A stretch of 64,000 nt of DNA from Candidatus Parcubacteria bacterium. GTDB lineage: Bacteria; Patescibacteriota; Patescibacteriia; Patescibacteriales; UBA12075. Numbering within the stretch: position 1 is the stretch's first letter; every line of letters begins with the position of its first letter. The notes beneath the pieces were generated by a model. It was not told the DNA's origin, did not search any database, and saw nothing but the letters and a program-made list of their open reading frames with translations. The position numbers and the translations under genes are program-made. Of this stretch, positions 24,920-61,775 are shown piece by piece. The stretch covers positions 1,195,263 through 1,259,262 of the forward strand of contig CAWFCE010000002.1 in NCBI GenBank assembly GCA_963814275.1. Reading direction: 5' to 3'.

Positions 24920-25780
24920 TTATAATAAATCCCCGATTTCGTCAAATTTATTTACTGCAACTTTAGTATAAATTTGAGTGGTTTCCAGGCGAGCATGGCC
25001 CAGCAAAGACTGAATATATCTTAAGTTTACACCATTTTCTAAGAGGTGGGTAGCAAAGCTGTGGCGCAATGAATGAGCAGAAACCCGTTTTTTGATCCCG
25101 GCCCGATTTGCGGCCTCGGTGACAATTTTCTGGATGGTCCGAACCGTCAATTTCCCGGCCGAACGGAAGCTTTCGAACAAGAATTCGGCCGGATCATAGC
25201 CGCGGATGTATTGCCCGATGTTTTCCAACACTGTCCCGGACACGATCGTCACCCGGTCCTTGTTGCCCTTGCCGGCCTGGATCCGGATTATTTTTCGGTC
25301 AAAGTCGATATCATAAACCCGCAAATTCACAAGTTCGCTCACCCGCATGCCGGTGGTATAAAGCACCTGGATGATGAGTTTATGTTTTATATTTCCTGCT
25401 ACCTCTATCATCCCAATGATTTCTTTTTTCGCCAGCACAACCGGTATCCTGGAGCCCATTTTGGGCCGCTTGATCCGGATTTCCCCGGCAAAAAAATTCC
25501 TCTTTAAAATTTGCGTGTAATAGAATTTAATGGCGTTGATCGCCAGGTTCAAGGTCGCCGGCGCCCGGCCGCTCACCAGAAGCCAATCCAGATAATCTTT
25601 TATATCCTGCGCGTTTAAATCATCGCTGAATTTGTTTGCAAATCTAAGCAATTCCTTGGTATAATAAACATAAGCCTTTACCGTTTTTTGGCTATAATTC
25701 CGTATTCTCAATTCCTGCTCCAAGTTATAAAACAAATCCCTTTTTAAAGTAGTAGAACGATTTAAATCTGATGGTAGCAT
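24920..25780 (-). CDS. tyrosine recombinase, integron-integrase-like N-terminus but Xer-sized (array 1 recombinase)
   Basis: 286 aa. SAM-like core-binding domain (IRNYSQKTVKAYVYY..., RIPVVLAKKEI); catalytic set TGMRVSE, GKGNKDR, HSLRHSFATH, LLGH, QIYTKV. It is divergent from and 78 bp away from the first GTTRRRY site. Confidence 0.85.
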   Translation of the reverse strand: MLPSDLNRSTTLKRDLFYNLEQELRIRNYSQKTVKAYVYYTKELLRFANKFSDDLNAQDIKDYLDWLLVSGRAPATLNLAINAIKFYYTQILKRNFFAGEIRIKRPKMGSRIPVVLAKKEIIGMIEVAGNIKHKLIIQVLYTTGMRVSELVNLRVYDIDFDRKIIRIQAGKGNKDRVTIVSGTVLENIGQYIRGYDPAEFLFESFRSAGKLTVRTIQKIVTEAANRAGIKKRVSAHSLRHSFATHLLENGVNLRYIQSLLGHARLETTQIYTKVAVNKFDEIGDLL

Positions 25781-27702: not shown

Positions 27703-27842
27703 ACAAATTGCCAAAATTAATTTAAATAGCGGAGGAGGCTTTTTATTACTCGCTCCACTCCGTTCCGCGCCGCGCTGCGCTCTCACCCTCAAATTTTATG
27801 ATTATTAACTTTAATAAGGTATAAAATTTGAGTCTTCGGGGC

Positions 27843-27941: not shown

Positions 27942-28006
27942 GAAATAATTAAATTATTTTTGCTCCGCAAAAATTGTTAGGGCAAATTTATTTAATCTTT
28001 AATCTT

Positions 28007-28456
28007 ATGAAACTCTATCATGGTTCACCAAATAGTTTTGATACAATTCGTAAAAGTCAGGCGCAAGCAGGTGATGATATTAAAGTGCCAGATGATGAAT
28101 TATTAAACGCGATTTATTTAACCCCAAATTATGAATTTGCTTTGGCCATCGCTTCGATGCCGGAAGGTGCTGCCAACATCGACAATGAAACCAAAACAAT
28201 CAAGTTTGAAAATCCTGAAGCATTCGACCCAGAAAAAGAAGTTTATATTTATGAAGTTGATAGTGAATTAATCCCGAAAGAAAATTTAAAAGAAGTTGAC
28301 GAGCTTCAAATTGCGATTTTAAACACCGATGAAATAAAGCCAACAATAAAACATGTTTGCAAAGCTGGTGATGTTGAGAAATATTATGAAATAAAAAAAG
28401 AAATTTTAGAGGCTAAAAACGAAACTAAAATATCACCTGAGTTCAAGATTAAATAA
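28007..28456 (+). CDS. hypothetical protein (cassette 3)
   Basis: ATG at 28007 (MKLYHGSPNSF). The track start at 27974 lies in the inverted repeat GGGCAAATTTATTT. Confidence 0.5.
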   Translation: MKLYHGSPNSFDTIRKSQAQAGDDIKVPDDELLNAIYLTPNYEFALAIASMPEGAANIDNETKTIKFENPEAFDPEKEVYIYEVDSELIPKENLKEVDELQIAILNTDEIKPTIKHVCKAGDVEKYYEIKKEILEAKNETKISPEFKIK

Positions 28457-28500
28457 ATTTGCCCTAACAACTCGCTATCGCTCGTTAATTTAATTACATC

Positions 28501-28627
28501 ACACAACACCGCGATAAACGGCTCGGTCTTTATTCAAAGACCTCGCGCAAATTTCTGTTTTCTCTTTTGTGATTAATTTAATAATGTAGAGAAGACAGAA
28601 ACTTCGCTTCATCGGGAAACATTATGT
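28501..28627 (+). repeat. attC-like site 3
   Basis: R'' ACACAAC is the reverse complement of the upstream GTTGTGT. CCGCGATAAACGG / CGCTTCATCGGG stems with conserved bulges; GCGCAAATT; long H2 with an ATTAATTTAATAAT loop; ACTTCG. R' is ATTATGT. Confidence 0.72.
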
Positions 28628-28686
28628 GAAATATGTTTTTACTCTTGGGCTAACGCCCCAACTTTTATATAATAAATTTAATTTTT

Positions 28687-29136
28687 ATGAATAACCTAAA
28701 ATATACGAAACCACTAAACATTTTTTTGCTTTTAGTAGCTATTGTCTTATTAGCTGGTTGCTCAAATAAATATTTTGAAAAAAATTTGGAGTGCGAGAAA
28801 CAAAAAGACATGCTTCAATACAACAGCGATAATTACAGCAAGGATACCAACACAATTATCAGTAAAATTCAAAAAGTATTTTACAGTCCAAAAGCAAAAA
28901 AATGTTTGTATGTTAGTGTCTCTGCAATCGATTTTAATTCGCCTAATAATATGACTGCTCTAACACAGAAAGACTATTCAGACGGAGCAAGATGGAAGCT
29001 CCGGACAATTTCAGGCGAATTAGTTGAAGATTTGCTAATTAACACTGAAGATGAAAAAATGGCTGTTTTTGGAGCAGAGCCACAACATACAGATTCATAT
29101 GAAGAATTTGAAAACCTTGTTAAAAAATGGGAATAA
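28687..29136 (+). CDS. putative lipoprotein (cassette 4)
   Basis: 149 aa. Signal peptide with lipobox LLAGC. Confidence 0.55.
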   Translation: MNNLKYTKPLNIFLLLVAIVLLAGCSNKYFEKNLECEKQKDMLQYNSDNYSKDTNTIISKIQKVFYSPKAKKCLYVSVSAIDFNSPNNMTALTQKDYSDGARWKLRTISGELVEDLLINTEDEKMAVFGAEPQHTDSYEEFENLVKKWE

Positions 29137-29200
29137 AAAATTAAATTTATTATATAAAAGCAATTCCGCATAAGCGGAATTAAGAGCAAAAACATACATC

Positions 29201-29657
29201 ACATAACAATGAATATGCGGTTCACAAATTAAAAATTATTCCTTATAATTATCAAAATATATGAAAAAAATATTAGTATTCGCGGTCGTTGTCTTGTTAA
29301 TAATTTTAGTGTTTAGCTGGTGGAATAAATCCCCAGAAGCTACATGGCAGGGTTCCTATTACAAACACGGACAACAAGAAAACGAAGTGTATGGACCAAT
29401 TTTTACTAATTTTGATGGCTGTAAAGCGTGGGCATTAGGAAAAATAGTTTATAACGACGACACAGCTAACTGTAGTAAAAATTGTCATGACGCTTTGGGA
29501 GACGGCACCCCTGTGTGTGAGGAAGTTGTTAGAAATTGGGCACCGCTTCCGGGCAGTTACACTTTTGATAATTATAAGGAATAATTTTTAATTTGTTCAC
29601 CCAAATTTTTGTTCCGCTTCGCTACACAAAAACTTCGCATATTCATAAACGTTAGGC
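29201..29657 (+). repeat. attC-like site 4, split by a nested cassette (29225-29595)
   Basis: R'' ACATAAC matches the upstream TTATGT. L'' AATGAATATGCG (29208-19) pairs with L' CGCATATTCAT (29636-46). The insert is flanked by GTTCAC (29220-25 and 29595-600) and sits immediately 5' of CCAAATT. R' is GTTAGGC (29651-57). Confidence 0.72.
29261..29584 (+). CDS. small secreted/TM-anchored Cys-containing protein (nested cassette)
   Basis: 107 aa with an N-terminal hydrophobic helix. The ORF is bracketed by a perfect 32-bp inverted repeat (29225-29256 / 29564-29595), whose right arm encodes the last 6 codons plus the stop. Confidence 0.55.
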   Translation: MKKILVFAVVVLLIILVFSWWNKSPEATWQGSYYKHGQQENEVYGPIFTNFDGCKAWALGKIVYNDDTANCSKNCHDALGDGTPVCEEVVRNWAPLPGSYTFDNYKE

Positions 29658-29689
29658 GAAATAAATTTTTCGCTACTAATTTTAAACAT

Positions 29690-30283
29690 ATGAAAAAATT
29701 CTTTTTGGGCTTCGCAAGCTCGTTATTAATCACAATTCCCCTGATCGCTTTTTCTGCTGATTCACTGTCTACAAAACTAAAAGGAAAAATTTTGTTAGCA
29801 GTAGAAGATAAGGGTAAAACTTATTATGTCAATGAAGATGGAAACAGATACAGAATTACTGTTTCTACTGCACAAAAAATATTTGAAAAACTTGCATTGG
29901 GCATTACAAATGAAAATTTAAGTCAAATTCCAGAAAGTAACGTAGGTATCGACCCAGAAGAAAACAGCACCCAGGAAAATTGTGCTGCGCAAGAATCAGA
30001 ATTAAATGATTGGAAGAATTTGAATACAAAAAATGAAAATACCCTCAGTTCTTGCCTTAACACCCTCACTAGCTTGAAGGATTCTTATGCAGACCTAATT
30101 AACAAATACGAAGATTGCATAGGTGAGTGCAATTATGGCCCTACAGTTGATGCACTCATCGCCCAAAATAACGAGCTTGCTAAACAAAATGATGAACTTT
30201 TAGCTATATCTATTTACTGGGAAAATAGTGCTAACACATGGAAGGCTTACGCATATGGTTGCACTGGCTATACTAGTCAATAA
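29690..30283 (+). CDS. secreted protein with KGKILLxVExxGxxYYV motif (cassette 6)
   Basis: ATG at 29690 (MKKFFLGFASSLLITIPLIAFS signal peptide). The track start at 29609 reads through attC-like site 4. Confidence 0.55.
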   Translation: MKKFFLGFASSLLITIPLIAFSADSLSTKLKGKILLAVEDKGKTYYVNEDGNRYRITVSTAQKIFEKLALGITNENLSQIPESNVGIDPEENSTQENCAAQESELNDWKNLNTKNENTLSSCLNTLTSLKDSYADLINKYEDCIGECNYGPTVDALIAQNNELAKQNDELLAISIYWENSANTWKAYAYGCTGYTSQ

Positions 30284-30336
30284 AATTAGTAGCGAAAAAT
30301 TTACTCAAGGGTTCGCTCCTTGAATCCGCTCACCTC

Positions 30337-31028
30337 GCCTAACGCGGCGTATCTGGCTCCGCTGGCCGTAAAATAATTAATTTTTTTATGACGATATTAA
30401 AGCCCAGAAATAAACCTGGCTCAAATAGTTTGCAAAACAGATTAGGTGGAGCAGTTTATAATTTTCTGGACAAAGCAAAAAATAATGATAAATTTTTGTT
30501 AGACTACGAAAGGATTAAAGGTAAATGTACCTCTGGCAATTGGCAAATTAATGATTATTCTCCAATACTTTTGCCATTGGTTAAATACTATGAAAATAGC
30601 TTGTGGTTTATTTGTGATAAATTAGGCATATTTAACCAGATTAATGACGGCAAAAAACCCCATAGCTTAAGGGCATTTTTCGACACAAAAGAAACAGAAA
30701 TAAATATTTGGCTTTCTTCAAAAATTAATGATAATCTTAAATATAAAAAATTGTCCAGAAAATTATTTTCAACAATCGACGATTATGTTCAGAGAAATGA
30801 AGTTGTTCATTGCAACGAAATCATATCCTTTCCCGATTTGAGCAATTACGATAGTTTGCTTACTAAATTAAAAGAATTAGTTGAACTTTTATTTAATCAC
30901 AATTTATTACAAAAAAATTAATTATTTTACTAGCTCCGCCCAAATTTCGTTTCCGCTTTTTGTTGGCGCATCCGCGCAATTATAACAAAAAGCTACAACG
31001 AAACTTCAGATACGCCGAAATGTTATCG
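30337..31028 (+). repeat. attC-like site 6, split by a nested cassette (30363-30932)
   Basis: R'' GCCTAAC is the reverse complement of the upstream GTTAGGC. L'' GGCGTATCTG (30346-55) pairs with L' CAGATACGCC (31007-16). The direct repeat GCTCCGC occurs at 30356-62 and 30933-39, the latter abutting CCAAATTT. R' is GTTATCG (31022-28). Confidence 0.72.
30388..30921 (+). CDS. hypothetical protein (nested cassette)
   Basis: 177-aa ORF flanked by the 20-bp inverted repeat GTAAAATAATTAATTTTTTT (30368-87 / 30911-30). Confidence 0.5.
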   Translation: MTILKPRNKPGSNSLQNRLGGAVYNFLDKAKNNDKFLLDYERIKGKCTSGNWQINDYSPILLPLVKYYENSLWFICDKLGIFNQINDGKKPHSLRAFFDTKETEINIWLSSKINDNLKYKKLSRKLFSTIDDYVQRNEVVHCNEIISFPDLSNYDSLLTKLKELVELLFNHNLLQKN

Positions 31029-31120
31029 GAAATAAATTTTTTATCTTGGTGGTAATTTCAAGGTTTGCGCGTTTTGCCAAGACGAAAATTTGATTTTTTA
31101 TTTTTTAAAGAGGGGTAATT

Positions 31121-31609
31121 ATGAAATTAACCAAAGAAACTACCTCGGAAAAACTTCTTGATTTTGGCAAACAGATTTTCGAGATTTTACAAAGACTAGA
31201 TACCTCACCAATCGTTTACGGTAGTTTGGCATATTTTTATCATACGAAAGATACTAGTTTCCCGATTAGAGACATTGATTTGCTTTTGCCAGAATCAAAT
31301 TTTTCAAAAATATCTGAAATGCTCGACAAAGAAAAAAATGTCACATACAATGTGATGCCATATCATAGTATAGAGGTATTCAGAGACGGTCTCGAAATCG
31401 ACATCGATTCTATCGAACATTTTTTAGATCCGAGATCTAGAGAATTTCATAAATCAACGATAAACGACCTCGATTTGAATATTTTAAATAAAGAGTCCTT
31501 GGCAAGCATTTACAAAGAAGCCTTGGATAACATGCCGCAAGAGAAAAAACTCGATGAAAAAAGAAATAAGTATCAAAAGAAGTTAGACAATCTCCAAAAA
31601 TTACTTTAA
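31121..31609 (+). CDS. hypothetical protein, possible minimal nucleotidyltransferase fold (cassette 8)
   Basis: 162 aa with SD AAGAGGGG. YGSLAYFYH...IRDIDLLLPE resembles the GS...DxD motif of Pol-beta-type nucleotidyltransferases; this is a weak call. Confidence 0.4.
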   Translation: MKLTKETTSEKLLDFGKQIFEILQRLDTSPIVYGSLAYFYHTKDTSFPIRDIDLLLPESNFSKISEMLDKEKNVTYNVMPYHSIEVFRDGLEIDIDSIEHFLDPRSREFHKSTINDLDLNILNKESLASIYKEALDNMPQEKKLDEKRNKYQKKLDNLQKLL

Positions 31610-31734
31610 TAAGGAGTTTTTATTTTTGGCCATTCACCCCTACCCCTCTGGCCAAAAATAAAAACAAAAAATCAAATTTTCTTTTAACGTAGAAAAGCTA
31701 TCGGCCAGTAGCATGGAGATAAAAAATTTACATC

Positions 31735-31921
31735 CGATAACACGGCACATGCGGTTCAGAAATTTCTCGTTTTTTAGACTTTTCAATTAAGGTATGAGAA
31801 ATTTCCTCTCCCAAATTGCGCTGACTATATGGAAAGTTTAGTGGTATAATCAAGTTAAGCGATAATCAATAATTTTATCAATAAATAACGGCGCAACTTC
31901 GCATGTGCCGATACGTTAAAT
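31735..31921 (+). repeat. attC-like site 8
   Basis: R'' CGATAAC is the reverse complement of the upstream GTTATCG. GGCACATGCGG / CGCATGTGCC stems; GGTTCA; H1 GAAATTTCTC...GAGAAATTTC; CTCTCCCAAATT; long H2; AACTTCG. R' is GTTAAAT (31915-21). Confidence 0.72.
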
Positions 31922-32016
31922 GAAATTGGCTAATTGTTTAGTGTACACCATAGATGACACTATAGTGTACACTAATGTGGTAAATCAAAGTTAATCGCGA
32001 GCCAACTTCACTTAAC
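31916..32016 (+). other. conserved ORF-less cassette, copy 1 of 3
   Basis: GAAATTGGCT...TTAATCGCGAGCCAACTTC-ACTTAAC with internal palindrome TAGTGTACAC-N16-GTGTACACTA. Homologous copies are at 59441-59542 and 61297-61396. Confidence 0.6.
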
Positions 32017-32534
32017 AGGTGATATGCGGTTACAATTAAGGAAATATAGAATATAATTTTTACTAAAAAAATCCCCACGAACTGAATCGCAGGGACACGT
32101 TGGTTTTAGTCCATCTTTGGAAATTACACAATAAGGATTTTTGCTCTGCCTTCGACATTGTGAAAACCGATAAACACAGTATTGCGTCCGGTTTCCTTTA
32201 AACGTTTCAATGCTAACACGGCAGCTTCGGTACCAACGGTTTTTTCAAAATCTGATATGAGCTTTATGGCATCATCAATCGGATAATCATCAACTTCCAC
32301 TCCAACCATTGGTCCGTGCTTTTCTGGGTCATATTCTGATATCGGCGCTGTCTTTAATTCCATATTCCCTCCTTTTTATGAATTGTTGCTAGAAACTTAG
32401 CACGTGAATGCCAAAAACGCAAGTAAAAATTATTTTCTATATTTCTTTAATCTCCACCCAAATTCCTGCCCCTCTTTTTAGGATAAATTAATAATGAGTC
32501 GGGGCAGAAACTTCGCATATCAAAAATGTTAGGC
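32010..32534 (+). repeat. attC-like site 9, split by a nested reverse-oriented cassette (32034-32451)
   Basis: R'' ACTTAAC. L'' GGTGATATGCG (32018-28) pairs with L' CGCATATCA (32513-21). ACCCAAATT and the H2 stem CCTGCCCC...GGGGCAG follow. R' is GTTAGGC (32528-34). This is a paralog of the array 2 site at 59536-60215. Confidence 0.7.
32124..32363 (-). CDS. hypothetical 79-aa protein (reverse-oriented nested cassette)
   Basis: Strong SD (AGGAGGG) 7 nt upstream of the ATG on the minus strand. The cassette is bounded by a roughly 29-bp inverted repeat (32034-63 / 32423-51). Confidence 0.55.
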   Translation of the reverse strand: MELKTAPISEYDPEKHGPMVGVEVDDYPIDDAIKLISDFEKTVGTEAAVLALKRLKETGRNTVFIGFHNVEGRAKILIV

Positions 32535-32559
32535 GAAATTTATTTTCAATTTAAAATTT

Positions 32560-33396
32560 ATGAGTTCGGATACTATAACCAATTACTACGATTACACCCT
32601 GCCATTTTATAGATTTTTTTATCACGGCAAGAGCAATGCCGTTCATTATGGCTTTTGGAACAATGGAGTTAAAAATCACCAGGAAGCTTTATTGAACGTA
32701 AATAAATTTTTGGCTGACACGGTTAAGATAAAATCAGATGATAGTGTTTTAGACGCGGGTTGCGGAATTGGAGGTAGCGCGATTTGGCTGGCACAGAATT
32801 ACAATGTTCGAGTTGATGGCATAACCATAAGTGAAAAACAGTTAGAGGAAGCCAAAAATTTATCTACCAAATATAATGTTGACCATATCGTAAATTTTTA
32901 TCAAAGAAATTTTTTAAATACCAAATTTAACGATAGTTCCTATAACATAGTTTTGGCGATTGAAAGCGTGTGCCATGCCGAGAACAAAAAGGACTTTATC
33001 AAAGAAGCGTACCGGGTACTTAAAAACGGCGGACGATTGATTGTTGATGATGGATTTCTTTTGCGAAGTCCGAAAAATAAACACGAGCAAAAAGATTTAA
33101 ATGCATTTTTAGAGGGCATGGCACTCTCCAATCTTGCTTTTGAAACAGACTTTAAAAAATCTCTTGAAGATGTTGGATTTAAAAATATAAAAATTTACGA
33201 CAAGGTCAACGAAACGATTCCTTCTTCAAAAAAAATCTATAAAATGTCAATTTTTAGTTATCCTTTATCTATAATTCTCGAAAAACTAAAACTTACACCA
33301 CCATTATTAACCAAAAATAATTTAGCGGGAATAACACAATACAGGATAATTAAAAATGGGATAATGGGACACCGAGTATTTTACGCTGAAAAATAA
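32560..33396 (+). CDS. class I SAM-dependent methyltransferase (cassette 11)
   Basis: 278 aa. Motif I VLDAGCGIGGSAIWLA; post-I and motif II/III spacing (LKNGGRLIVDD). Confidence 0.8.
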   Translation: MSSDTITNYYDYTLPFYRFFYHGKSNAVHYGFWNNGVKNHQEALLNVNKFLADTVKIKSDDSVLDAGCGIGGSAIWLAQNYNVRVDGITISEKQLEEAKNLSTKYNVDHIVNFYQRNFLNTKFNDSSYNIVLAIESVCHAENKKDFIKEAYRVLKNGGRLIVDDGFLLRSPKNKHEQKDLNAFLEGMALSNLAFETDFKKSLEDVGFKNIKIYDKVNETIPSSKKIYKMSIFSYPLSIILEKLKLTPPLLTKNNLAGITQYRIIKNGIMGHRVFYAEK

Positions 33397-33419
33397 ATTT
33401 TAAATTGAAAATAAACATC

Positions 33420-33573
33420 GCCTAACACCGCGATAAGCGGCTCCAGAAAAGTTCCTTAATTAAATATAATAATGAGTAAACTTTTCTTCCGACCCAAATT
33501 TCTATTTTTCTTTTCTTATTAATTTTAATATTGAAAAAAAATAGAAACTTCGCTTCATCGGGAAACGTTGTGT
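33420..33573 (+). repeat. attC-like site 11
   Basis: R'' GCCTAAC is the reverse complement of the upstream GTTAGGC. CCGCGATAAGCGG / CGCTTCATCGGG stems; GGCTCC; H1 33445-87; CCCAAATT 33493-500; H2 33501-45; AACTTCG 33546-52. R' is GTTGTGT (33567-73). Confidence 0.75.
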
Positions 33574-33639
33574 GAAATAATGTCCTTAAACAAAATATTT
33601 TAGGTGGTGCTAATTCAAAAGAAAAAGGAGGGAGGTATT

Positions 33640-33852
33640 ATGGTAATCATCAATAAACTTGGCAGATTATTAAAAGACCATTCAGAAACTTTTATTCTTT
33701 TTTTAGCGGGTATAATATTAACCCTATACGGGATTTTGAAAGCATTGCCTTTTATTGATTGGGCGCAGAAAGGTCAATTTTCGAGTGAGTTTACTATTTT
33801 ACTTGGAATACTTCTGCTATTCTTTGGACTTCGTTCATTATTAAACAAATAA
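33640..33852 (+). CDS. small two-TM membrane protein (cassette 12)
   Basis: ATG at 33640 preceded by AAGGAGGGAGG. 70 aa. Confidence 0.55.
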   Translation: MVIINKLGRLLKDHSETFILFLAGIILTLYGILKALPFIDWAQKGQFSSEFTILLGILLLFFGLRSLLNK

Positions 33853-33955
33853 ATTGATTATTCTCGCGGGGAACACTTTCCCCGCACCACCTAAAATATT
33901 TTGTTAGCTTCTATTCAGAAGCTGTTTGCTCAATCGCAAACAAGGACATTACATC

Positions 33956-34073
33956 ACACAACAACGCGACAAGCGATTCGGTCTTTATTCAAAGACCTCA
34001 CTCAAATTTTTGAAATGATTATTAACTTTAATAATGAATTTCAAAAACTTCGCTTCGTCGGTATACGTTATAT
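33956..34073 (+). repeat. attC-like site 12
   Basis: R'' ACACAAC is the reverse complement of the upstream GTTGTGT. H1 GGTCTTTATTCAAAGACC; CACTCAAATT; H2 TTTGAAATG...ATTTCAAA; ACTTCG. R' is GTTATAT (34067-73). Confidence 0.72.
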
Positions 34074-34090
34074 GAAATTAAAAATTCCCT

Positions 34091-34603
34091 ATGAGCATTA
34101 AACAAGATTGGAAAAGTCCCAAAGTTGATATAAAAGATAGTCCGATTGGAGGAAAAGGCATTTTTGCTAATTCCAATATTAAACGAGGTGAAAAAATCAT
34201 CGTCTGGGGAGGAAATTATACTGATGCTGTTGGTGCGCAAAAAGCAAAAGAAAAAGGTATGCTAGTATTTCAATGGGACGATGACCTTTATAGCTACGAA
34301 GATAGAGGGAAAGACGATGGGTACTACATAAACCATTCCTGTAACCCTAATCTATGGATGACAGATGCATACACTTTAACAGCTATGAGAGATATTAATG
34401 CTGGTGAAGAAATTACAATAGATTATGCGTTGTTCGAGGAAGATGATTATATTTCAAAATGGAAATGCAACTGCGGTTCATCGTTATGCCGCGGCCGGGT
34501 TACAGGAGAGGATTGGAAAAGCATAGTGCTACAAAAACGCTATAAAGGACATTTTTCACCTCTCTTAAATAAACGGATCCAGAAATTACAAGATAATAAA
34601 TAA
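34091..34603 (+). CDS. SET domain protein (cassette 13)
   Basis: 170 aa. YINHSCNPN and EEITIDY SET motifs plus the post-SET CNCGSSLCRG. Confidence 0.8.
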   Translation: MSIKQDWKSPKVDIKDSPIGGKGIFANSNIKRGEKIIVWGGNYTDAVGAQKAKEKGMLVFQWDDDLYSYEDRGKDDGYYINHSCNPNLWMTDAYTLTAMRDINAGEEITIDYALFEEDDYISKWKCNCGSSLCRGRVTGEDWKSIVLQKRYKGHFSPLLNKRIQKLQDNK

Positions 34604-34627
34604 TTCACGGCGGGAATTTTTAACATC

Positions 34628-34772
34628 ATATAACACCGCGATAAGCGGTTCCAGAAAATTTCCTTTATTAATGATAATAATGAATAAAATTTTCTTCCAC
34701 CCAAATTTTGCAAATGAATATTAATTTTAATAAGGTATTTGCAAAACTTCGCTTCATCGGGAAACGTTAGGC
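34628..34772 (+). repeat. attC-like site 13
   Basis: R'' ATATAAC is the reverse complement of the upstream GTTATAT. Same family as sites 3, 11 and 17. R' is GTTAGGC (34766-72). Confidence 0.75.
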
Positions 34773-34800
34773 GAAATAATTTATCAATAATTAAATTTCT

Positions 34801-35150
34801 ATGGGAATAGACAACAAGCCTTTTACGGCAGAGCAACTCCAGGAACAGATTAATTTTTTTGGAATTGATTGCACTGTAAAAAAACACCTGGAGAAAAATA
34901 TATATTTTTTAGTTGTGACTCTATGGAAGACGCGGAATCAATAGTAGTAAGTTTTTGGGGAAAAAGAGATCAATCAGTTGTTGACGGCCTTAACCGAGGC
35001 ATGCTAAAACCTAGTCATGAAATTACTACAGGTGCCAGAACGGAAATCACTGAAATCGGAGGCAAAGCAACATTAATTATTAGTGAAAACGGTGCTCCAC
35101 TTTCGGAAAAAACAATTTCAGCATTAGAAGATGGAGGATTTACAATTTAA
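34801..35150 (+). pseudogene. hypothetical cassette gene with a frame break at an A7 run (cassette 14)
   Basis: The ATG at 34801 opens MGIDNKPFTAEQLQEQINFFGIDCTVKK. After the A7 run (about 34877-34883) the reading continues in another frame as TPGEKYIFFSCDSMEDAES... to 35150; one extra A would fuse the two frames. Alternatively an intact ORF could start at ATG 34923. Confidence 0.4.
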
Positions 35151-35232
35151 TTATTGATAAATTACTCAAGGGGGCGCTGCGCTTCAGGTCTGCCTTTTAC
35201 AATTAATAATATTGAGAGCAGACCTGACCCTC

Positions 35233-35331
35233 GCCTAACAACGCGATATGCGGTTCGGCCCTCGGCTCGGGCCTCACCCAAATTTTCTTTCACTTCGTTC
35301 AAGAAAACTTCGTATATCGGTGATGTTGTAC
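35233..35331 (+). repeat. attC-like site 14
   Basis: R'' GCCTAAC is the reverse complement of the upstream GTTAGGC. Near-identical to site 2 apart from H2. R' is GTTGTAC (35325-31). Preceded by a hairpin module at 35165-35232. Confidence 0.75.
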
Positions 35332-35359
35332 GAAATAAAAATTTAATTATTTTGCTACC

Positions 35360-36079: not shown

Positions 36080-36107
36080 GAACGCAAAATAATTAAATTT
36101 TTACATC

Positions 36108-39589: not shown

Positions 39590-39726
39590 CGATAACAGCG
39601 TATATCAGGTTCCGACTCCCCTGTCGGTGAGCCTCCACCCAAATTCGGTCTCCATAATTTGCTGGTGCTCCGCACAATTTTAGAAAATTACTACGACTGT
39701 ACTTCTAATATACGCATATGTTAGAT
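39590..39726 (+). repeat. attC-like site 20
   Basis: R'' CGATAAC is the reverse complement of the upstream GTTATCG. GGTTCC; CCACCCAAATT. R' is GTTAGAT (39720-26). Confidence 0.7.
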
Positions 39727-39763
39727 GAAATGACTCCATATTCATTACGTCACATCATCTAAC
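39721..39763 (+). other. minimal ORF-less cassette (43 bp)
   Basis: TTAGAT-GAAATGAC...GTCACATC-ATCTAAC: just a short inverted repeat between an R' and the next R''. Confidence 0.5.
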
Positions 39764-40325
39764 ACTGTGTAACTGGCTCCGCTAAATAAATAATTTCATT
39801 TCAATATTATGGCTTACTATAACAAAATCGGCTTATTGATTTTAAATGAAAATGCTACTAAATTTCTTGTTTGTGAGCCTGGCAACCTGTATAAAAATAA
39901 AAACGTTACTCAGTATTTAATGCCCGGCGGGAAATACGAAGAAGATTCTGTCGAGGATTGTTTAAAATCCGAAACAAAAGAAGAGCTTGGTTGTGAATTG
40001 GACATAAGCAGTGTTAAATATATTAATGAATACCTCGACGTAGCCGCGGCAAGCCCCAATCGCGATGTCTCAATTCGTTTATATGAAGGAAAACTCATTG
40101 GCAAACCCGTTCCCTCAACTGAAATAGGCGCTCTTCATTGGATTGGAAAAAGAGACGTTAATAATGAAAAAGTTTCTGCCATAATAAAAAATAAAATAAT
40201 CCCCGATTTAGTGGAGAAAAAAATATTGAAATAAAATTATTTATTTAGCTCCGCCCAAATTTTTGAAATAATTAATTAACTTGATAAGGAATTTCAAAAA
40301 CTTCAGTTACACATAAACGTTAGAT
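39757..40325 (+). repeat. attC-like site 21, split by a nested cassette (39783-40247)
   Basis: R'' ATCTAAC. L'' TGTGTAACTG (39766-75) pairs with L' CAGTTACACA (40305-14). The direct repeat GCTCCGC occurs at 39776-82 and 40248-54, the latter abutting CCAAATTT. R' is GTTAGAT (40319-25). Confidence 0.72.
39809..40234 (+). CDS. NUDIX-like hydrolase (nested cassette)
   Basis: 141 aa. Nudix-box-like PGGKYEEDSVEDCLKSETKEELG. Flanked by the perfect 15-bp inverted repeat CTAAATAAATAATTT (39782-96 / 40234-48). Confidence 0.6.
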   Translation: MAYYNKIGLLILNENATKFLVCEPGNLYKNKNVTQYLMPGGKYEEDSVEDCLKSETKEELGCELDISSVKYINEYLDVAAASPNRDVSIRLYEGKLIGKPVPSTEIGALHWIGKRDVNNEKVSAIIKNKIIPDLVEKKILK

Positions 40326-56539: not shown

Positions 56540-57970
56540 TCATAAGATTTCTTTTATTTTTTCAAAAAGTGATTTGCCTTCCAAGTCAGCTTTAATTGAT
56601 TTAATTTCAACAAAATCATCAATCTCATCATCGGCGCGGAGGCCGGGTATGGAGATAATGAAAGAATACGCGCCGTTTTCGCGGTAGGCGGAGGATAGAT
56701 CGATGTCAGCGGCAGCGGTCTGCCAGCCATCTGCTGACGCGGGCGGATAGTAGCCGGCTATTACATAATCTATCCCCTCTTTATCCGGATCGAACGTGGC
56801 GTCGACTTTCCTGATGGCGGGGTTAAGCAATTCTTCCGGGCGCAAGGTGAAGACGCCGTCGCCGGTCAGGGTAATCCCGTCTTTTTCCAGCTCGATCGGG
56901 GCAGGTTGGCCGGGTTTAGCGTCTGTTTGGGCGGTGTACTGGCGGTAGGTTTCGGCCATATCGATGGTAGAAGAACCGACCCTGAGCGTTTGCAGGCTCT
57001 CCGGTCGGGATGTTACCGCCTGAATTTGCCGGCTGTCGGTATAGAAAACAAAATTCTCCTCTCCGGAAGCATACAAGGGCACTTTGCCGATTAACGACAG
57101 CTTGCTTTGCGCTGTGTCTATCCGGTCGGTGACGATGTCACTGCCGGCGCGCACCGCGATCTTATAGACACCCTCAGGCAGTCCGGGCAGGTCAAAAGAC
57201 GCTTTTTCGTTCCCGCCGGACTGGCCGTTTTCCGGGGCGCCCGCGTCTTCGACCTTTCGGGAATCGATCGGTTCGCCGTTATAATAAAGGATGATCTCGA
57301 CCGGGTCCGGATCCCGGTTAAGGTTCAGGTCATGAAAGGTGAAATCGAAGCGGAGCGGCTCATCCTTGACATAGGTATAGAACTGGTAATCACCCCGGAG
57401 GGCAATGCCGATATCGCGCATGGCGCTCGAACTGGCATAACCGGATAAAAGATAGGGCAAGCGCAAATCATAATTATATACGGCAATACGCCCGCGCCCG
57501 GGCGGATTGGCCAGGAAATCGCCGATCGAATCGTAATCAGGCTGGCGCTGCAGCAGCAGCGTCTCCCCTTCCCTGACCGCGTTCCAGTCTCCGGCCAATC
57601 GGTCGAGCAAACTGTTATCCAAAGGCTTAAGCGAGTAGCGCCACACGGTCTTATCGACCAAGGCTCCGGTTTCGATGATGGGCTTAGTAGAATCGTTCTT
57701 ATATTCGATCGTTAATTTGGCTTTATCGAAGCGGCGCGGGGTGTACAAAGCAAAATAGACCGGATCGCCGGTCAGTTTGACAGTGTGGCTGTCGGTTCTT
57801 TCCACTCTGTCGTCCGGAGTGAGCGCCCGGATAAAATAGCTGCTCGCGGTAAAATCCTGCTTATAGGTAATTTTCCCGCCGGGAACGACTGTCATATAGA
57901 CAAGCCAAACAAGCAACAGCCCCAAGGCCGTCCACAATATGATCCTGATTTTAATCTTTATATCCGGCAT
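56540..57970 (-). CDS. hypothetical TM-anchored extracytoplasmic protein
   Basis: 476 aa with an N-terminal TM helix. Its start codon overlaps the recombinase stop (TAATG). Confidence 0.5.
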   Translation of the reverse strand: MPDIKIKIRIILWTALGLLLVWLVYMTVVPGGKITYKQDFTASSYFIRALTPDDRVERTDSHTVKLTGDPVYFALYTPRRFDKAKLTIEYKNDSTKPIIETGALVDKTVWRYSLKPLDNSLLDRLAGDWNAVREGETLLLQRQPDYDSIGDFLANPPGRGRIAVYNYDLRLPYLLSGYASSSAMRDIGIALRGDYQFYTYVKDEPLRFDFTFHDLNLNRDPDPVEIILYYNGEPIDSRKVEDAGAPENGQSGGNEKASFDLPGLPEGVYKIAVRAGSDIVTDRIDTAQSKLSLIGKVPLYASGEENFVFYTDSRQIQAVTSRPESLQTLRVGSSTIDMAETYRQYTAQTDAKPGQPAPIELEKDGITLTGDGVFTLRPEELLNPAIRKVDATFDPDKEGIDYVIAGYYPPASADGWQTAAADIDLSSAYRENGAYSFIISIPGLRADDEIDDFVEIKSIKADLEGKSLFEKIKEIL

Positions 57971-58782
57971 TAATATGGGCTTTTTATTTTTTTAATCCCC
58001 GGATTGGTTACCTGGGTGTAGTGCTGGGTGGTACGGATATTGGCGTGCCCGAGCAGGGCCTGCACATAGCGTACATCCGTTCCCTGTTCCAGCAAATGAG
58101 TGGCAAAGCTATGCCGCAGAGAATGGAAGGTCGCGTCTTTTTTTATTTCCGTGTCTTTAAGCGCGCGTTCAAATATGGCTTGCACGGCGCGCGAGGAATA
58201 TTTCCCGCCTCGGTTGCTCATGAATACCGGATCACCGGCTTGCCGCTCGCAGATGAATTCCCTTAAATCATGCCTGAGCAGTTCGGATATAATCGTTATT
58301 CTATCCTTTTTGCCCTTAGCGCCTTTGATGTGGATTATCAATTCTTCCAAATCAAAATCTCTGACGCGCAGGCCTGTTACTTCGCTGATCCGCAGTCCGG
58401 CCGCATATGACAATTCGATCATCAGGCGGTGCTGACGGTTTTTTATTTTGCTCATCAGCAATTTAATTTCCCGCGAACTCATTACTACCGGCAGTTTACT
58501 CTCTCTTTTTGCGAATTTAACGTCGATTTTATCAGATATATTTAGAATATCCCGGTATAGGAATTTTACCGCATTCAAGGCCAGATTAATAGTCTGCGCG
58601 GCCAGATCTCGTTTTCTCATTTCCAGCAAGAAATCTTTAACCGCTTCTTCTTTGCTTTCTTTTTTGTTAATAGTCACGTATTTTAAATATTCCCTGATAT
58701 ATCTCAGGTAGCTGGTTATGGTTTTTCCACTATAGATCATCATCACTAATTCTCTTTCTGTTTTAGCTAAAATAGATTGCAT
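57970..58782 (-). CDS. tyrosine recombinase, integron-integrase-like N-terminus but Xer-sized (array 2 recombinase)
   Basis: 270 aa. SGKTITSYLRYIREYLKY core-binding domain; catalytic set AGLRISE, GKKDR, HSLRHSFATH, LLGH, QHYTQV. Divergent from the cassette array that starts at 58897. Confidence 0.85.
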   Translation of the reverse strand: MQSILAKTERELVMMIYSGKTITSYLRYIREYLKYVTINKKESKEEAVKDFLLEMRKRDLAAQTINLALNAVKFLYRDILNISDKIDVKFAKRESKLPVVMSSREIKLLMSKIKNRQHRLMIELSYAAGLRISEVTGLRVRDFDLEELIIHIKGAKGKKDRITIISELLRHDLREFICERQAGDPVFMSNRGGKYSSRAVQAIFERALKDTEIKKDATFHSLRHSFATHLLEQGTDVRYVQALLGHANIRTTQHYTQVTNPGIKKIKSPY

Positions 58783-59347: not shown

Positions 59348-59446
59348 GTACAACACGCTGTATCTGGTTCGGGGCTCAGCCCGCCCCTCTCCCAAATTCG
59401 CTTCCGCTTCGCTCCAGCGAACTTCAGATACAGCGATATGTTAAAT
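59348..59446 (+). repeat. attC-like site, array 2 no. 1
   Basis: R'' GTACAAC is the reverse complement of the attI-like GTTGTAC. CGCTGTATCTGG / CAGATACAGCG stems; GGTTCG; H1 GGGCTCAGCCC; CTCTCCCAAATT. R' is GTTAAAT (59440-46). Preceded by a hairpin module at 59271-59347. Confidence 0.75.
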
Positions 59447-59542
59447 GAAATTGGCTTCACGATTAGCACATTCCATAGAATGTGCTATAGAATACTCTAT
59501 AGGTGGTTAATCCAAATTAATCGCAAGCCAACTTCACTTAAC
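59441..59542 (+). other. conserved ORF-less cassette, copy 2 of 3
   Basis: GAAATTGGCT...TTAATCGCAAGCCAACTTC-ACTTAAC with internal hairpin GCACATTC-CATA-GAATGTGC. Confidence 0.6.
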
Positions 59543-60215
59543 AGGTGATATGCGACTGCGAAAAGTAATTTTTATTTTTTAATTTTTATGTGGCGAACAA
59601 TTTCATCTAAAGAGATATTCAATCATCCACGCATTGTATTAGTCGAGGATGAGGTTGAATTACCGAATGGCAAAGTAACCAAATACCTTAGATACAAGGA
59701 CAGTGGTGCTGGCGTCGTTACCATAGTCTGCAGGCGTGATGACGGCAAGATATTATTACAGAAAGAATATTCCTACCCGATCAACCAAAAACTTTTCCAA
59801 TTTCCTGGCGGCGGAACACATCCGGGTGAAAAACTGGAAGACGGAGCTAACCGCGAACTAATGGAAGAAGCGAACTTAAGAGCTAACAAACTTGAGTTAA
59901 TTGGAAAATATCTGAAAAATAATCGTCGTTCCAAGGTAATGTTTCATGTTTACCTTGCTACAGATTTAGTAAGTGACTCGTTGCCCAGCGACGAAACCGA
60001 AGAAATCGAAAGTTTTTGGTTTAGTGAAGACGAAATTGACGACATGATAAGAAATGGGGACATTATAAATAACCACGCCTTGTCTGCCTGGATACTTTAT
60101 AAGATAAAAATTAAAAAATAAAAATCACTTTTCTCCGTCCAAATTCCTGTCCCTCTTTTTAGATAATTTTAATAATGAGTCGGGGCAGGAACTTCGCATA
60201 TCACAGATGTTATGT
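59536..60215 (+). repeat. attC-like site, array 2 no. 2, split by a nested cassette (59560-60133)
   Basis: R'' ACTTAAC. L'' GGTGATATGCG pairs with L' CGCATATCAC. TCCAAATT and the H2 stem CCTGTCCC...GGGGCAGG follow. R' is GTTATGT (60209-15). Paralog of the array 1 site at 32010-32534. Confidence 0.7.
59588..60121 (+). CDS. NUDIX hydrolase, ADP-ribose pyrophosphatase-like (nested cassette)
   Basis: 177 aa. Nudix box GGGTHPGEKLEDGANRELMEEANL. Flanked by a 28-bp inverted repeat (59560-87 / 60106-33). Confidence 0.8.
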   Translation: MWRTISSKEIFNHPRIVLVEDEVELPNGKVTKYLRYKDSGAGVVTIVCRRDDGKILLQKEYSYPINQKLFQFPGGGTHPGEKLEDGANRELMEEANLRANKLELIGKYLKNNRRSKVMFHVYLATDLVSDSLPSDETEEIESFWFSEDEIDDMIRNGDIINNHALSAWILYKIKIKK

Positions 60216-61145: not shown

Positions 61146-61302
61146 GCCTAACACCGCGATAAGCGGCTCCATCTCGCTTATTATTAATAAATGATAATAT
61201 TAAATGGCGGGATTCCGACCCAAATTTCAATCCTTTCTTTTAAGTATTAATTTTAATAATGTAGAAAGAATTGAAACATCGCTTCATCGGGAAACGTTAT
61301 AT
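61146..61302 (+). repeat. attC-like site, array 2 no. 5
   Basis: R'' GCCTAAC is the reverse complement of the upstream GTTAGGC. Family of sites 3, 11, 13 and 17. R' is GTTATAT (61296-302). Confidence 0.75.
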
Positions 61303-61396
61303 AAAATTGGCTTCACATATAGTGTACACCATAGCGCCATCTATAGAGTACACTAACGTAATAAATAAAATTAATCGCGAGCCAACTTCACTTAAC
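61297..61396 (+). other. conserved ORF-less cassette, copy 3 of 3
   Basis: AAAATTGGCT...TTAATCGCGAGCCAACTTC-ACTTAAC with internal TAGTGTACACC...GAGTACACTA. Confidence 0.6.
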
Positions 61397-61775
61397 AATG
61401 TATATACGGCTCCGCCGGACGTGAAATAAATATTTTTAGAAAGCTAACTAAAAGGAGGTGCACATGGATGAAATAAAAAAAGATGTTGGCAAAGACGATC
61501 CTTACAGAAACCTCAAAGAATGGGGTGAACGAGCGCGCAAAAAAATGAAGCCCGAAGACTGGGAAAATGCTTTAAACGCAGCCGAAAGCATTATCGAGAA
61601 TATTGCGCGCATCTGTTCTTAGTAACAATTAACATTCCATTCTGGGGGAAATTCGCTTTCCCCCGCTTTCTAAAAATATTTATTTCACTGGCTCTGCCCA
61701 AATTTTTATTTTTCTTTTCTCTATAATGATAATAATGAAGAAAAATAAAAACTTCGTGTATACAAAATGTTAATC
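61390..61775 (+). repeat. attC-like site, array 2 no. 6, split by a nested cassette (61421-61688)
   Basis: R'' ACTTAAC. L'' TGTATATACGG pairs with L' CGTGTATACA. GCTCCGC (61409-15) and GCTCTGC (61691-97) flank the insert, the latter abutting CCAAATTT. R' is GTTAATC (61769-75). Confidence 0.68.
61464..61622 (+). CDS. 52-aa hypothetical protein (nested cassette; absent from the ORF track because it is under 60 aa)
   Basis: Strong SD AAAGGAGGTG 5 nt upstream of the ATG. Translation MDEIKKDVGKDDPYRNLKEWGERARKKMKPEDWENALNAAESIIENIARICS. Followed by hairpin GGGGGAAA-TTCG-CTTTCCCCC. The cassette is bounded by a perfect 24-bp inverted repeat (61421-44 / 61665-88). Confidence 0.55.
   Translation: MDEIKKDVGKDDPYRNLKEWGERARKKMKPEDWENALNAAESIIENIARICS

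What the first reader, a model, noticed from the sequence alone, without database searches (positions are those of the whole stretch)
31916..32016. Conserved ORF-less cassette present three times, always followed by a site that hosts a nested cassette
Copies lie at 31916-32016, 59441-59542 and 61297-61396. They share the ends GAAATTGGCT and TTAATCGC(G/A)AGCCAACTTC-ACTTAAC, which form a 10-bp IR. The interior is patterned TAG-N8-ATAG-N7-TATAG-N7-TA and contains palindromes (TAGTGTACAC...GTGTACACTA; GCACATTC-CATA-GAATGTGC). No ORF is possible.

In all three cases the downstream attC-like site is one of the split sites carrying a nested cassette. The interior could be a small RNA, an operator or promoter cassette, or a cis element linked to use of the inner insertion slot.
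Basis: seen in the sequence. Interest (0 to 1): 0.7.

Follow-up and report, generated by a model that had tools for sequence, protein, structure and literature searches.

The report
Non-coding leader of integron cassettes
A gene-less stretch of about 100 bases, repeated three times here, is the conserved front end of a family of mobile gene cassettes in Patescibacteria (CPR) whose gene sits inside the cassette's own recombination hairpin; it is real and widespread, but any role beyond lengthening that hairpin is unproven.

Summary
Three copies lie at the stated coordinates, and a shared 24-mer occurs 3 times against 0 expected.

The window carries two integron-like arrays, each beside a XerA-like tyrosine recombinase. 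Cassette borders are the canonical G|TTRRRY.

The element is not a cassette of its own. It is the stretch between a cassette's 5' border (G|TTAAAT) and that cassette's own R'' box (ACTTAAC). The cassette's only ORF lies further on, inside its attC loop.

The "10-bp IR" is the outward continuation of the attC stem. Most cassettes here have such a stem, each with its own sequence.

I found 8 further distinct copies in Patescibacteria MAG and metagenome contigs. Ends are 93-96% identical and interiors 51%. The TAG-12-mer palindromes are confined to one sublineage. No promoter, terminator, Rfam family or conserved inner fold was found.

All 10 evaluable copies precede an ORF-bearing attC. So do three unrelated short hairpin leaders, so the association belongs to the cassette architecture, not to this sequence.

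The same leader-plus-attC "chassis" carries unrelated ORFs in different copies. That is the most interesting point.

Most likely role: a structural outer arm or cap of a successful cassette vehicle. The function of the interior is unresolved.

The parts
31916..32016 (+). Element copy W1: non-coding leader between the cassette border G|TTAAAT and the cassette's own R'' box ACTTAAC.
   Evidence: CM 103.7 bits
59441..59542 (+). Element copy W2.
   Evidence: 109.7 bits
61297..61396 (+). Element copy W3.
   Evidence: 95.9 bits
31915..31931 (+). W1 left arm of the closing (outer) stem, GTTAAATGAAATTGGCT. It pairs with 32000-32016.
32000..32016 (+). W1 right arm of the outer stem, AGCCAACTTCACTTAAC. 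It includes the R'' box 32010-32016.
31916..32528 (+). Whole cassette carrying W1: leader, R''/spacer (32010-32029), long stem arms 32036-32064 and 32422-32450 flanking the ORF, CCCAAATT at 32457-32464, distal spacer, and the G of R' at 32528.
32124..32363 (-). 79-aa ORF inside the attC loop of the W1 cassette. It has a strong RBS and a terminator-like hairpin at 32071-32096, and no Pfam or NCBIfam match.
59441..60209 (+). Whole cassette carrying W2: leader, R''/spacer 59536-59555, stem arms 59560-59587 and 60106-60133, TCCGTCCAAATT at 60134-60145, and the G of R' at 60209.
59588..60121 (+). 177-aa NUDIX hydrolase ORF inside the attC loop of the W2 cassette.
61297..61768 (+). Whole cassette carrying W3: leader, R''/spacer 61390-61409, stem arms 61417-61444 and 61665-61688, CCCAAATT at 61697-61704, and the G of R' at 61768.
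61464..61622 (+). 52-aa ORF inside the attC loop of the W3 cassette.
24920..25780 (-). Tyrosine recombinase of array 1 (XerA-like 'integron integrase'). The array starts at attI crossover G|TTAGAT, position 25858.
57970..58782 (-). Tyrosine recombinase of array 2. The array starts at attI crossover G|TTGTAC, position 58897.
39721..40319 (+). Comparator cassette with the same architecture and an unrelated leader: a 30-nt hairpin leader (39727-39756) followed by an attC that encloses ORF 39809-40234.

Best explanation
The element is the non-coding leader of one family of mobile cassettes in Patescibacteria integron-like arrays run by a XerA-like recombinase.

In these arrays the first ~20-45 nt of a cassette, just after the crossover G|TT, are complementary to the nucleotides that end in the cassette's own R'' box. 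In the excised circular or single-stranded form they therefore continue the attC stem outward, beyond the R box.

The element's invariant ends (GTTAAATGAAATTGGCT / AGCCAACTTCACTTAAC) are this outer stem. The ~66-nt middle is a cap on that stem with few sequence constraints. In the lineage of this genome it has evolved three 12-bp palindromic units.

The usual ORF position of the cassette is thus occupied by a hairpin. The cassette's gene sits instead in the variable loop of the attC, closed off by a long perfect stem. That is why the element is always followed by a split attC: the two are parts of one cassette.

Inferred role: the outer stem clamps R' and R'' together on the recombinogenic (bottom) strand. 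This would stabilise the R-box helix of an attC whose arms are 360-660 nt apart, keeping this chassis recombination-proficient. That would explain its spread and its reuse with different cargo ORFs.
For: Shown:
- Cassette borders are canonical. Homology between the duplicate cassettes 36755-37427 and 60210-60882 starts and stops at G|TT.
- The spacer after the element's R'' pairs with a partner 360-660 nt downstream. It sits immediately after AACTTC and 3-4 nt before GTTRRRY, with compensatory differences in 7 of 9 cassettes.
- Outer stems are general. In 17 of 26 cassettes, 19-22 of the first 24 nt pair with the 24 nt ending in the cassette's own R'', each cassette with a different sequence.
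- The element's stem is 98.7% paired in 10 copies, with one compensatory swap (TTGCCTT/AAGGCAA in L004 1517-1616).
- Both conserved mismatches are A.C on top and G.T on the bottom strand, and the bottom-strand fold is more stable in 8 of 9 copies.
- Ends are 93-96% identical and the interior 51%. The only consensus structure is the closing stem.
- Mobility: an identical element has different upstream attCs in L003 and L011.
- Spread: a covariance model finds it in 2 of 4 arrays fetched through integrase homologues alone.
- Chassis versus cargo: W3, L004 and L013 share the 5' 154-194 nt and the 3' 113-115 nt at 80-91% identity, with unrelated ORFs between. W1 and W2 behave likewise.
- W2's NUDIX ORF, with similar flanking inverted repeats, sits in the ordinary ORF position of a cassette in L017.
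Against: - Covariation within the element's own stem is minimal: 12 of 15 pairs never vary, and 46 of 500 shuffles reach the observed score. Sequence-level rather than structure-level selection on the ends cannot be excluded.
- A 30-nt hairpin does the same job in other cassettes (39720-39763; L003; L008). A 66-nt middle of constant length (whole element 100-105 nt) with conserved blocks (TTAG, ATTCCATAG, TAATC-N4-TTAATCGCG) is therefore more than a cap needs.
- The ends are better conserved than the attC spacer next to them. A purely structural role does not predict this.
- No recombination data exist for this recombinase.
Confidence: 0.5

Rival explanations
1. The element is a cis-acting accessory site, comparable to the direct repeats of attI, that recruits the recombinase. 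This would turn the neighbouring attC's inner position into an insertion or exchange point for ORF modules. It is the first reader's 'linked to use of the inner slot'.
For: - 10 of 10 evaluable copies precede an ORF-bearing attC.
- The same chassis carries unrelated ORFs.
- The conserved 3' block contains two direct RTTAATC repeats about 11 bp apart that resemble R' cores such as the GTTAATC used at 61768.
- Element subtype (P1/P2) and attC type (alpha/beta) occur in all four combinations. This implies exchange near R''.
Against: - Nested ORFs occur without the element: 28622-29651, 29652-31022, 39721-40319, L003 and L008.
- The repeats are degenerate in several copies and absent in L004 1517-1616.
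- The arrangement does not match the attI regions of these arrays in either orientation.
- The junctions of the nested inserts show no consistent crossover motif.
Confidence: 0.12
2. The element is a DNA-level regulatory module: an operator array of three 12-bp palindromes for a dimeric DNA-binding protein, or a promoter, carried as cassette cargo.
For: - Three tandem 12-bp (near-)palindromes are present.
- The units within a copy resemble each other more than the same-position units of other copies: TAGTGTACACTA-type in W1 and W3, TAGAATATTCTA-type in W2, L004 and L013.
- Between W2 and L013, unit 2 appears inverted in place (read by eye).
- A promoter-like site lies on the - strand in W1.
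Against: - The palindromes are absent from 5 of 10 family members.
- No promoter-like site recurs at the same place in W2 or W3.
- The motifs GTGTACAC and GCACATTC occur nowhere else in the 64 kb, so there is no second operator or obvious regulator gene.
- The nested ORFs differ and lie on either strand.
Confidence: 0.13
3. The element is a small structured RNA, most likely transcribed from the - strand where the closing helix is uninterrupted. It could be an sRNA, or a processing or stability element for cassette transcripts.
For: - On the - strand the 17-bp helix has G.U pairs in place of A.C mismatches.
- Whole-element folds have z-scores of -2 to -8.5.
- Length is constant at 100-105 nt.
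Against: - No Rfam match appears even at E<=1.
- There is no conserved inner structure or covariation.
- Interiors alone do not fold better than shuffles in 6 of 10 copies.
- No conserved promoter or terminator was found.
- G.T is also the most tolerated mismatch in single-stranded DNA, so the strand bias fits bottom-strand attC folding equally well.
Confidence: 0.08
4. The element is a functionless remnant, for example of a cassette that lost its ORF. Its ends would be kept alike by gene conversion among paralogues and by hitch-hiking with a useful attC.
For: - The interior diverges freely, at 51% identity.
- Paralogues lie close together: three in this window and two within 1 kb in L004.
- Gene conversion was proposed for the paralogous non-coding cassettes of Vibrio (PMC1382264).
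Against: - The ends are nearly invariant across at least 6 samples and across integrases only 64-74% identical.
- Length stays at 100-105 nt with no decay toward a minimal hairpin.
- No ORF-containing relative with the same ends was seen.
Confidence: 0.15

Closest known systems
Paralogous non-coding (ORF-less) gene cassettes of Vibrio chromosomal integrons (Boucher et al. 2006, PMC1382264)
   Same: - Non-coding sequence bounded by cassette borders.
- Several paralogues per array.
- Close homologues only in related hosts.
- Higher conservation than neutral sequence.
- Proposed either to be selfish or to serve the integron.
   Different: - Here the non-coding stretch is only the leader of a cassette that does carry an ORF, placed inside its attC.
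- Conservation is concentrated in the two ends that pair, not spread across the whole length.
- The host is Patescibacteria and the recombinase is XerA-like.
attC (59-base element) recombination sites of integrons
   Same: - Conserved imperfect inverted-repeat ends around a variable middle of about 60-140 nt.
- R''/R' boxes RYYYAAC/GTTRRRY.
- The first bases of a cassette are complementary to its own inverse core.
- A bias toward bottom-strand folding.
   Different: - The element has the boxes in the order GTT...AAC. It therefore lies between two attCs and is not itself an attC.
- Its stem is the outward extension of the R box, which classical attC descriptions do not include.
- The real attCs here have a conserved CCCAAATT loop motif and can enclose an ORF.
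attI accessory direct repeats (DR1/DR2 of attI1; from my own knowledge of Collis/Gravel 1998, not checked here)
   Same: Two core-like repeats about one helical turn apart, close to a recombination box.
   Different: - Orientation and spacing relative to the crossover differ.
- Binding is untested.
- The repeats are not conserved in every copy.
MITE / REP-type repeated palindromic elements
   Same: A short, non-coding, multi-copy sequence with inverted ends.
   Different: - There is no target-site duplication: copy 3 has TTAT against TTAA.
- Every copy sits exactly between an R' and an R'' box.
- Five of the ten 'terminal' bases are generic to most cassette starts.

Membership tests
Integron gene cassette (as part of one) | Bounded by crossover points G|TTRRRY | tested here: met
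   Homology between the duplicate cassettes 36755-37427 and 60210-60882 starts and ends at G|TT. The element copies begin at G|TTAAAT or G|TTATAT, and their cassettes end at G|TTAGGC, G|TTATGT and G|TTAATC. An identical element follows different upstream attCs in L003 and L011.
Integron gene cassette (as part of one) | Carries an attC with paired R''/R' boxes and inner arms | tested here: met
   The spacer after ACTTAAC pairs with the spacer before GTTRRRY, with compensatory differences in 7 of 9 cassettes. The arms are 360-660 nt apart, far longer than classical attCs.
Integron (platform) | Adjacent tyrosine recombinase gene and attI, with the cassette array in one orientation | tested here: met
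   Recombinase genes lie at 24920-25780(-) and 57970-58782(-). Both have Pfam SAM_4 plus Phage_integrase domains and match NCBIfam NF040815 'tyrosine recombinase/integron integrase', the first above cutoff at 249 bits. Both arrays start at ...ATAACCAG|TT.
Integron (platform) | IntI-specific additional domain near patch III (Messier & Roy 2001, cited in PMC9668308) | tested here: not met
   Aligned to VchIntIA (2a3v), query residues 183-213 (31 aa) face chain residues 172-244 (73 aa), so about 42 residues are missing. TIGR02249 scores 209 bits against a cutoff of 265, in two stretches. The protein is equally close to archaeal XerA, 4a8e.
Non-coding cassette sensu Boucher 2006 | Whole cassette without an ORF longer than 150 bp | tested here: not met
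   The three cassettes contain ORFs of 240, 534 and 159 bp inside the attC.
Structured RNA family | Match to a curated family, or a conserved fold with covariation | tested here: not met
   No Rfam hit appears at gathering score or at E<=1. Only the closing stem is shared, with a single compensatory pair.
Sigma-70 promoter cassette | -35/-10 hexamers at the same position in all copies | tested here: not met
   There is one 9/12 site on the - strand of copy 1 only, and none in copies 2 and 3.
MITE | Terminal inverted repeats with a target-site duplication, and insertion at varied loci | tested here: not met
   All 11 copies lie between GTTAWAT and ACTTAAC at cassette borders. No unpaired ends occur and there is no consistent duplication.
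Transcribed element | A discrete transcript | not testable with these tools
   No expression data were available.

The most novel reading that the evidence does not exclude
The element marks a reusable two-slot cassette vehicle. The vehicle is a conserved non-coding leader plus an attC whose inner loop accepts and exchanges ORF modules, each flanked by its own inverted repeat. The same modules can also occupy the ordinary ORF position of other cassettes. If this exchange is an active process, catalysed by the recombinase or templated by the hairpins, these Patescibacteria arrays would show how genes are loaded onto attC sites. That would address the long-open question of how integron cassettes are born.
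Probability: 0.2. Interest if true: 0.8.

Novelty: new variant of a known kind. Interest (0 to 1): 0.5.

Why it matters
Conserved non-coding cassettes are known, but their role has been unresolved since 2006. Here the non-coding piece can be placed precisely. It is the outer arm and cap of the cassette's own recombination hairpin, in a cassette type that keeps its gene inside the attC loop.

Site finders built on classical attC lengths (about 60-140 nt) would probably miss attCs whose arms are 360-660 nt apart. Such cassettes, and perhaps many arrays in Patescibacteria, may therefore be under-counted. I did not run any attC finder.

The same chassis with different cargo gives a concrete, testable system for asking how genes become associated with attC sites. 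It also lets one ask whether a Xer-like recombinase lacking the IntI-specific domain can run an integron.

Tried and rejected
1. **MITE inserted at TTAA.** Rejected: there is no consistent duplication, every copy sits at a cassette border, and half of the 'TIR' is generic.
2. **The element is a reversed or independent attC.** Rejected: the box order is GTT...AAC on both strands.
3. **An internal R' (GTTAATC) splits the element into two mini-cassettes.** Rejected: the left and right ends pair with each other and co-vary in L004 1517-1616.
4. **Second inner helix CGATTA/TAATCG.** It forms in only about half of the copies and shows no covariation (hand count on A2).
5. **Micro-ORF on the - strand** (11 codons, ATG from CCATAG). 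It is lost in L001, so not conserved.
6. **Interior as a guide or antisense to a nearby target.** No match of 12 nt or more exists elsewhere in the window apart from low-complexity A/T runs.
7. **Resemblance of the interior to an attC loop** (GGCTTCAC ... CCAAATT ... AACTTC). It is present in some copies only and is too weak to claim.
8. **dif/Xer site around ATGTTAAAT.** There is no second arm.
9. **Automatic segmentation of the arrays**. It was too noisy, so the census was done by reading.
10. **Exact-product look-ups** of the window's integrase. Nothing was on record.
11. **Viral contig scan.** It returned nothing.

Full report

The three stretches at 31916-32016, 59441-59542 and 61297-61396 align over their whole length. 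A 24-mer from their right end occurs exactly three times in the window and never in 100 shuffles.

The ends pair. Counting the flanking GTTAAAT and ACTTAAC, the helix has 17 positions with two A.C mismatches.

The interior is three tandem 12-bp units, each a near-palindrome beginning TAG and ending CTA. They are TAGTGTACACTA-like in copies 1 and 3 and TAGAATATTCTA-like in copy 2.

No ORF of 60 codons or more overlaps any copy.

**2. Context**

The window holds two cassette arrays on the + strand, at about 25.86-43 kb and 58.9-64 kb. Each starts next to a divergently oriented tyrosine recombinase gene (24920-25780 and 57970-58782).

- Both recombinases have the SAM_4 and Phage_integrase domains. 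Both match NCBIfam 'site-specific tyrosine recombinase/integron integrase'.
- Both arrays start at ...ATAACCAG|TT.
- Against VchIntIA (2a3v) the protein lacks about 42 residues where the IntI-specific domain lies. It is as close to archaeal XerA as to IntI (definition of the domain in PMC9668308).
- Homologues are numerous in Patescibacteria, including Falkowbacteria and Parcubacteria.

The recombination sites have this order:
- R'' (..YTAAC);
- a 12-nt spacer that pairs with its partner;
- GGYTC;
- a first stem-loop;
- a conserved CNCCCAAATT;
- a second stem-loop;
- AACTTCR;
- the partner spacer;
- R' (GTTRRRY), followed by GAAAT.

Cassette borders are the classical G|TT. The duplicate NUDIX cassettes 36755-37427 and 60210-60882 are homologous from G|TT to G|TT and not beyond.

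**3. What the element is**

Each copy begins at a crossover (G|TTAAAT, or G|TTATAT in copy 3). Each ends with ACTTAAC, which is the R'' box of the next attC.

The spacer after that R'' pairs with a spacer 360-660 nt downstream. That partner follows AACTTC directly and precedes GTTRRRY by 3-4 nt. The sequences differ in a compensatory way between cassettes in 7 of 9 cases.

The element and the 'split' attC therefore belong to one cassette:
- 31916-32528;
- 59441-60209;
- 61297-61768.

The element fills the place where the ORF usually lies. The ORF lies in the position of the first stem-loop of the attC, flanked by a near-perfect 24-29-bp inverted repeat.

**4. The inverted ends are a general feature**

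For 17 of 26 cassettes in the window, 19-22 of the first 24 nt pair with the 24 nt that end in the cassette's own R''. The sequence differs in every cassette. A·A and A·C mismatches sit at the same positions (GAAAT against ACATC).

In the circular or single-stranded cassette this continues the attC helix outward past the R box. The element's GAAATTGGCT/AGCCAACTTC is one instance of it.

Its own covariation is thin: 12 of 15 pairs never vary, and there is one compensatory swap, in L004 1517-1616. The evidence that pairing is selected therefore comes mainly from the whole class of cassettes.

Both conserved mismatches are A.C on the top strand and so G.T on the bottom strand. The extra change in copy 3 (G to A) follows the same rule. 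As single-stranded DNA, the bottom strand folds better in 8 of 9 copies. This fits bottom-strand folding as in classical attC sites, or a - strand RNA.

**5. Relatives elsewhere**

- The genome scan found one copy, in a Patescibacteria MAG (L001).
- The metagenome scan returned 11 loci. Seven are true copies and they represent four distinct sequences. L004 carries a second, divergent copy.
- A covariance model built from eight sequences then found two more copies, in L013 and L015. Those arrays were retrieved only through integrase homologues of 74% and 64% identity.
- L014, L016 and L017-L019 gave no hit.

All copies are 100-105 nt long and are flanked by GTTAWAT and ACTTAAC.

Mean pairwise identity is 96% for the left 17 nt, 93% for the right 26 nt and 51% for the interior. 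Blocks that persist in the interior are TTAG, ATTCCATAG and TAATC-N4-TTAATCGCG.

The 12-bp palindromes occur only in the window copies, L004a and L013, with traces in L003. Interiors alone fold better than shuffles only in W1, W2 and L004a, with W3 marginal.

RNAalifold keeps only the closing stem. Rfam gives nothing for the element at gathering score or at E<=1. Promoter-like and terminator-like sites do not recur between copies. The interior motifs occur nowhere else in the 64 kb.

**6. The association with split sites**

Every evaluable copy is followed by an attC whose arms enclose an ORF or other insert. These are W1-W3, L004a, L006, L007, L008, L013 and L015, plus L001, where 371 nt follow without the loop motif.

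The association is not specific to this sequence. Three unrelated short hairpin leaders are followed by ORF-bearing attCs as well: window 39720-39763, L003 923-970 and L008 524-568. Conversely, two ordinary ORF cassettes also have a second ORF in the loop (28622-29651 and 29652-31022).

I classified the 26 complete cassettes of the window by hand:
- 4 of 4 cassettes without a leader ORF have a loop ORF;
- 2 of 22 cassettes with a leader ORF have one.

The one-sided Fisher p is about 0.001, by my own arithmetic. The paralogues are not independent, so this is indicative only.

The simplest reading is that a cassette keeps at least one ORF, which can sit in either of two positions. One 57-nt cassette with no ORF at all exists, at L001 473-528.

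**7. Chassis and cargo**

W3, L004a and L013 share the 5' 154-194 nt (element, R'', spacer and 5' arm of the long stem). They also share the 3' 113-115 nt (3' arm, CCCAAATT, second stem-loop, spacer and R'). Identity there is 80-91%. The ORFs between are unrelated, at 52, 68 and 59 aa.

W1 and W2 share the 5' 115 nt and the 3' 82 nt, but have different stems and ORFs.

Element subtype and attC type occur in all four combinations, so exchange also happens near R''.

W2's NUDIX ORF has a 68%-identical homologue in L017. There it sits in the ordinary ORF position of a cassette with similar flanking inverted repeats. More distant homologues sit in ordinary chromosomal neighbourhoods. ORF modules thus appear portable between the two positions. 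How they move is not shown, and the junctions reveal no consistent crossover motif.

**8. Most likely role**

Shown:
- the element's position in the cassette;
- the pairing potential of its ends, and the generality of such stems;
- the strand bias;
- conservation of the ends but not the middle;
- mobility of the cassette (L003 versus L011);
- reuse of the chassis with different cargo.

Inferred: the stem clamps R' and R'' and stabilises the R-box helix of an attC with very distant arms. This would keep the vehicle recombination-proficient.

Unexplained:
- why the middle stays at about 66 nt when a 30-nt hairpin suffices elsewhere;
- why TTAATCGCG is conserved;
- what the 12-bp palindromes do in this lineage.

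I give the structural explanation 0.5. The rivals are an accessory recombinase-binding site that promotes use of the inner position (0.12), an operator or promoter module (0.13), a small RNA (0.08) and a functionless remnant homogenised by conversion (0.15).

**9. Comparison with what is known**

The nearest precedent is the paralogous, conserved non-coding cassettes of Vibrio arrays. Selfishness or a service to the integron was proposed for them (PMC1382264).

The present case differs in three ways:
- the non-coding piece is a leader within an ORF-bearing cassette;
- the ORF lies inside the attC;
- the recombinase lacks the IntI-specific domain.

Three full-text searches combining integron terms with Patescibacteria, the candidate phyla radiation or non-coding cassettes turned up no paper that studies integrons in this group. 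I did not search specifically for ORFs inside attC sites or for outward stem extensions.

**Verdict**

The feature is real and conserved. It is a new variant of a known kind. It is moderately interesting in itself, and more so for the cassette architecture it reveals.

Noticed in passing
window 24920-25780(-) and 57970-58782(-): Two separate integron-like platforms lie within 33 kb. Their recombinases are XerA-like and lack about 42 residues where the IntI-specific domain sits in VchIntIA. Hundreds of close homologues occur in Patescibacteria.
   Followed up: partly
window 25858-41690 and 58897-62349: In most cassettes the first 20-45 nt after G|TT are complementary to the nucleotides ending in the cassette's own R''. 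Every ORF is therefore bracketed by a cassette-specific inverted repeat, with conserved A·A and A·C mismatches (GAAAT against ACATC).
   Followed up: partly
window, e.g. 27211, 27887, 29600, 31810, 32457, 33493, 34700, 35277, 36144, 59391, 61219, 61697, 62285: Nearly every attC has an invariant unpaired CNCCCAAATT between its two stem-loops. It resembles an inverse core (RYYYAAA). GGYTC and AACTTCR flank the loop region like a second, inner pair of core-like boxes.
   Followed up: no
window, e.g. 28575-28590, 32483-32497, 33460-33480, 34660-34680, 59316-59331, 61250-61265: The loops of the small attC stem-loops share an AT-rich consensus, about TTATTAATTTAATAATG.
   Followed up: no
window 28622-29651 and 29652-31022: Two cassettes carry two ORFs each: one in the ordinary position, and a second inside the attC loop (29261-29584 and 30388-30921) flanked by 20-29-bp perfect inverted repeats.
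   Followed up: partly
window 36755-37427 and 60210-60882: The same NUDIX cassette is present once in each array. NUDIX hydrolases are strikingly frequent cargo here: also 59588-60121 and probably 39809-40234 (by eye only), and in L014, L015 and L016.
   Followed up: no
L001 473-528 (- strand): A 57-nt mini-cassette with no ORF anywhere. It consists of a short hairpin, R'' GCATAAC, a simple GC hairpin and R' GTTAAAT, and lies directly upstream of the element.
   Followed up: no
L001 1-122 and 225-330 (- strand reading): Downstream of the element's R'' in the MAG260 contig, a GC-rich sequence of about 105 nt is repeated twice (AAAACCCCGAACCAAGCACTG...GGGGGGAGGAA). It has no Rfam match at gathering score. 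It could be a structured RNA or a repeat inserted in the attC loop.
   Followed up: no
window 61641-61664; L004 ~976-1010; L013 ~1580-1600: Loop ORFs in the W3-type chassis are each followed by a GGGG...CCCC hairpin that abuts the 3' arm of the long stem. The reverse ORF of W1 has a terminator-like hairpin plus T-run at 32071-32096.
   Followed up: no
L004 581-683 and 1517-1616: Two element copies lie 830 nt apart in one 1.6-kb contig. The second has compensatory stem changes (TTGCCTT/AAGGCAA) and lacks TCGCG.
   Followed up: yes
window 1-64000: No Rfam family, not even a tRNA, reaches its gathering score anywhere in the 64 kb.
   Followed up: no
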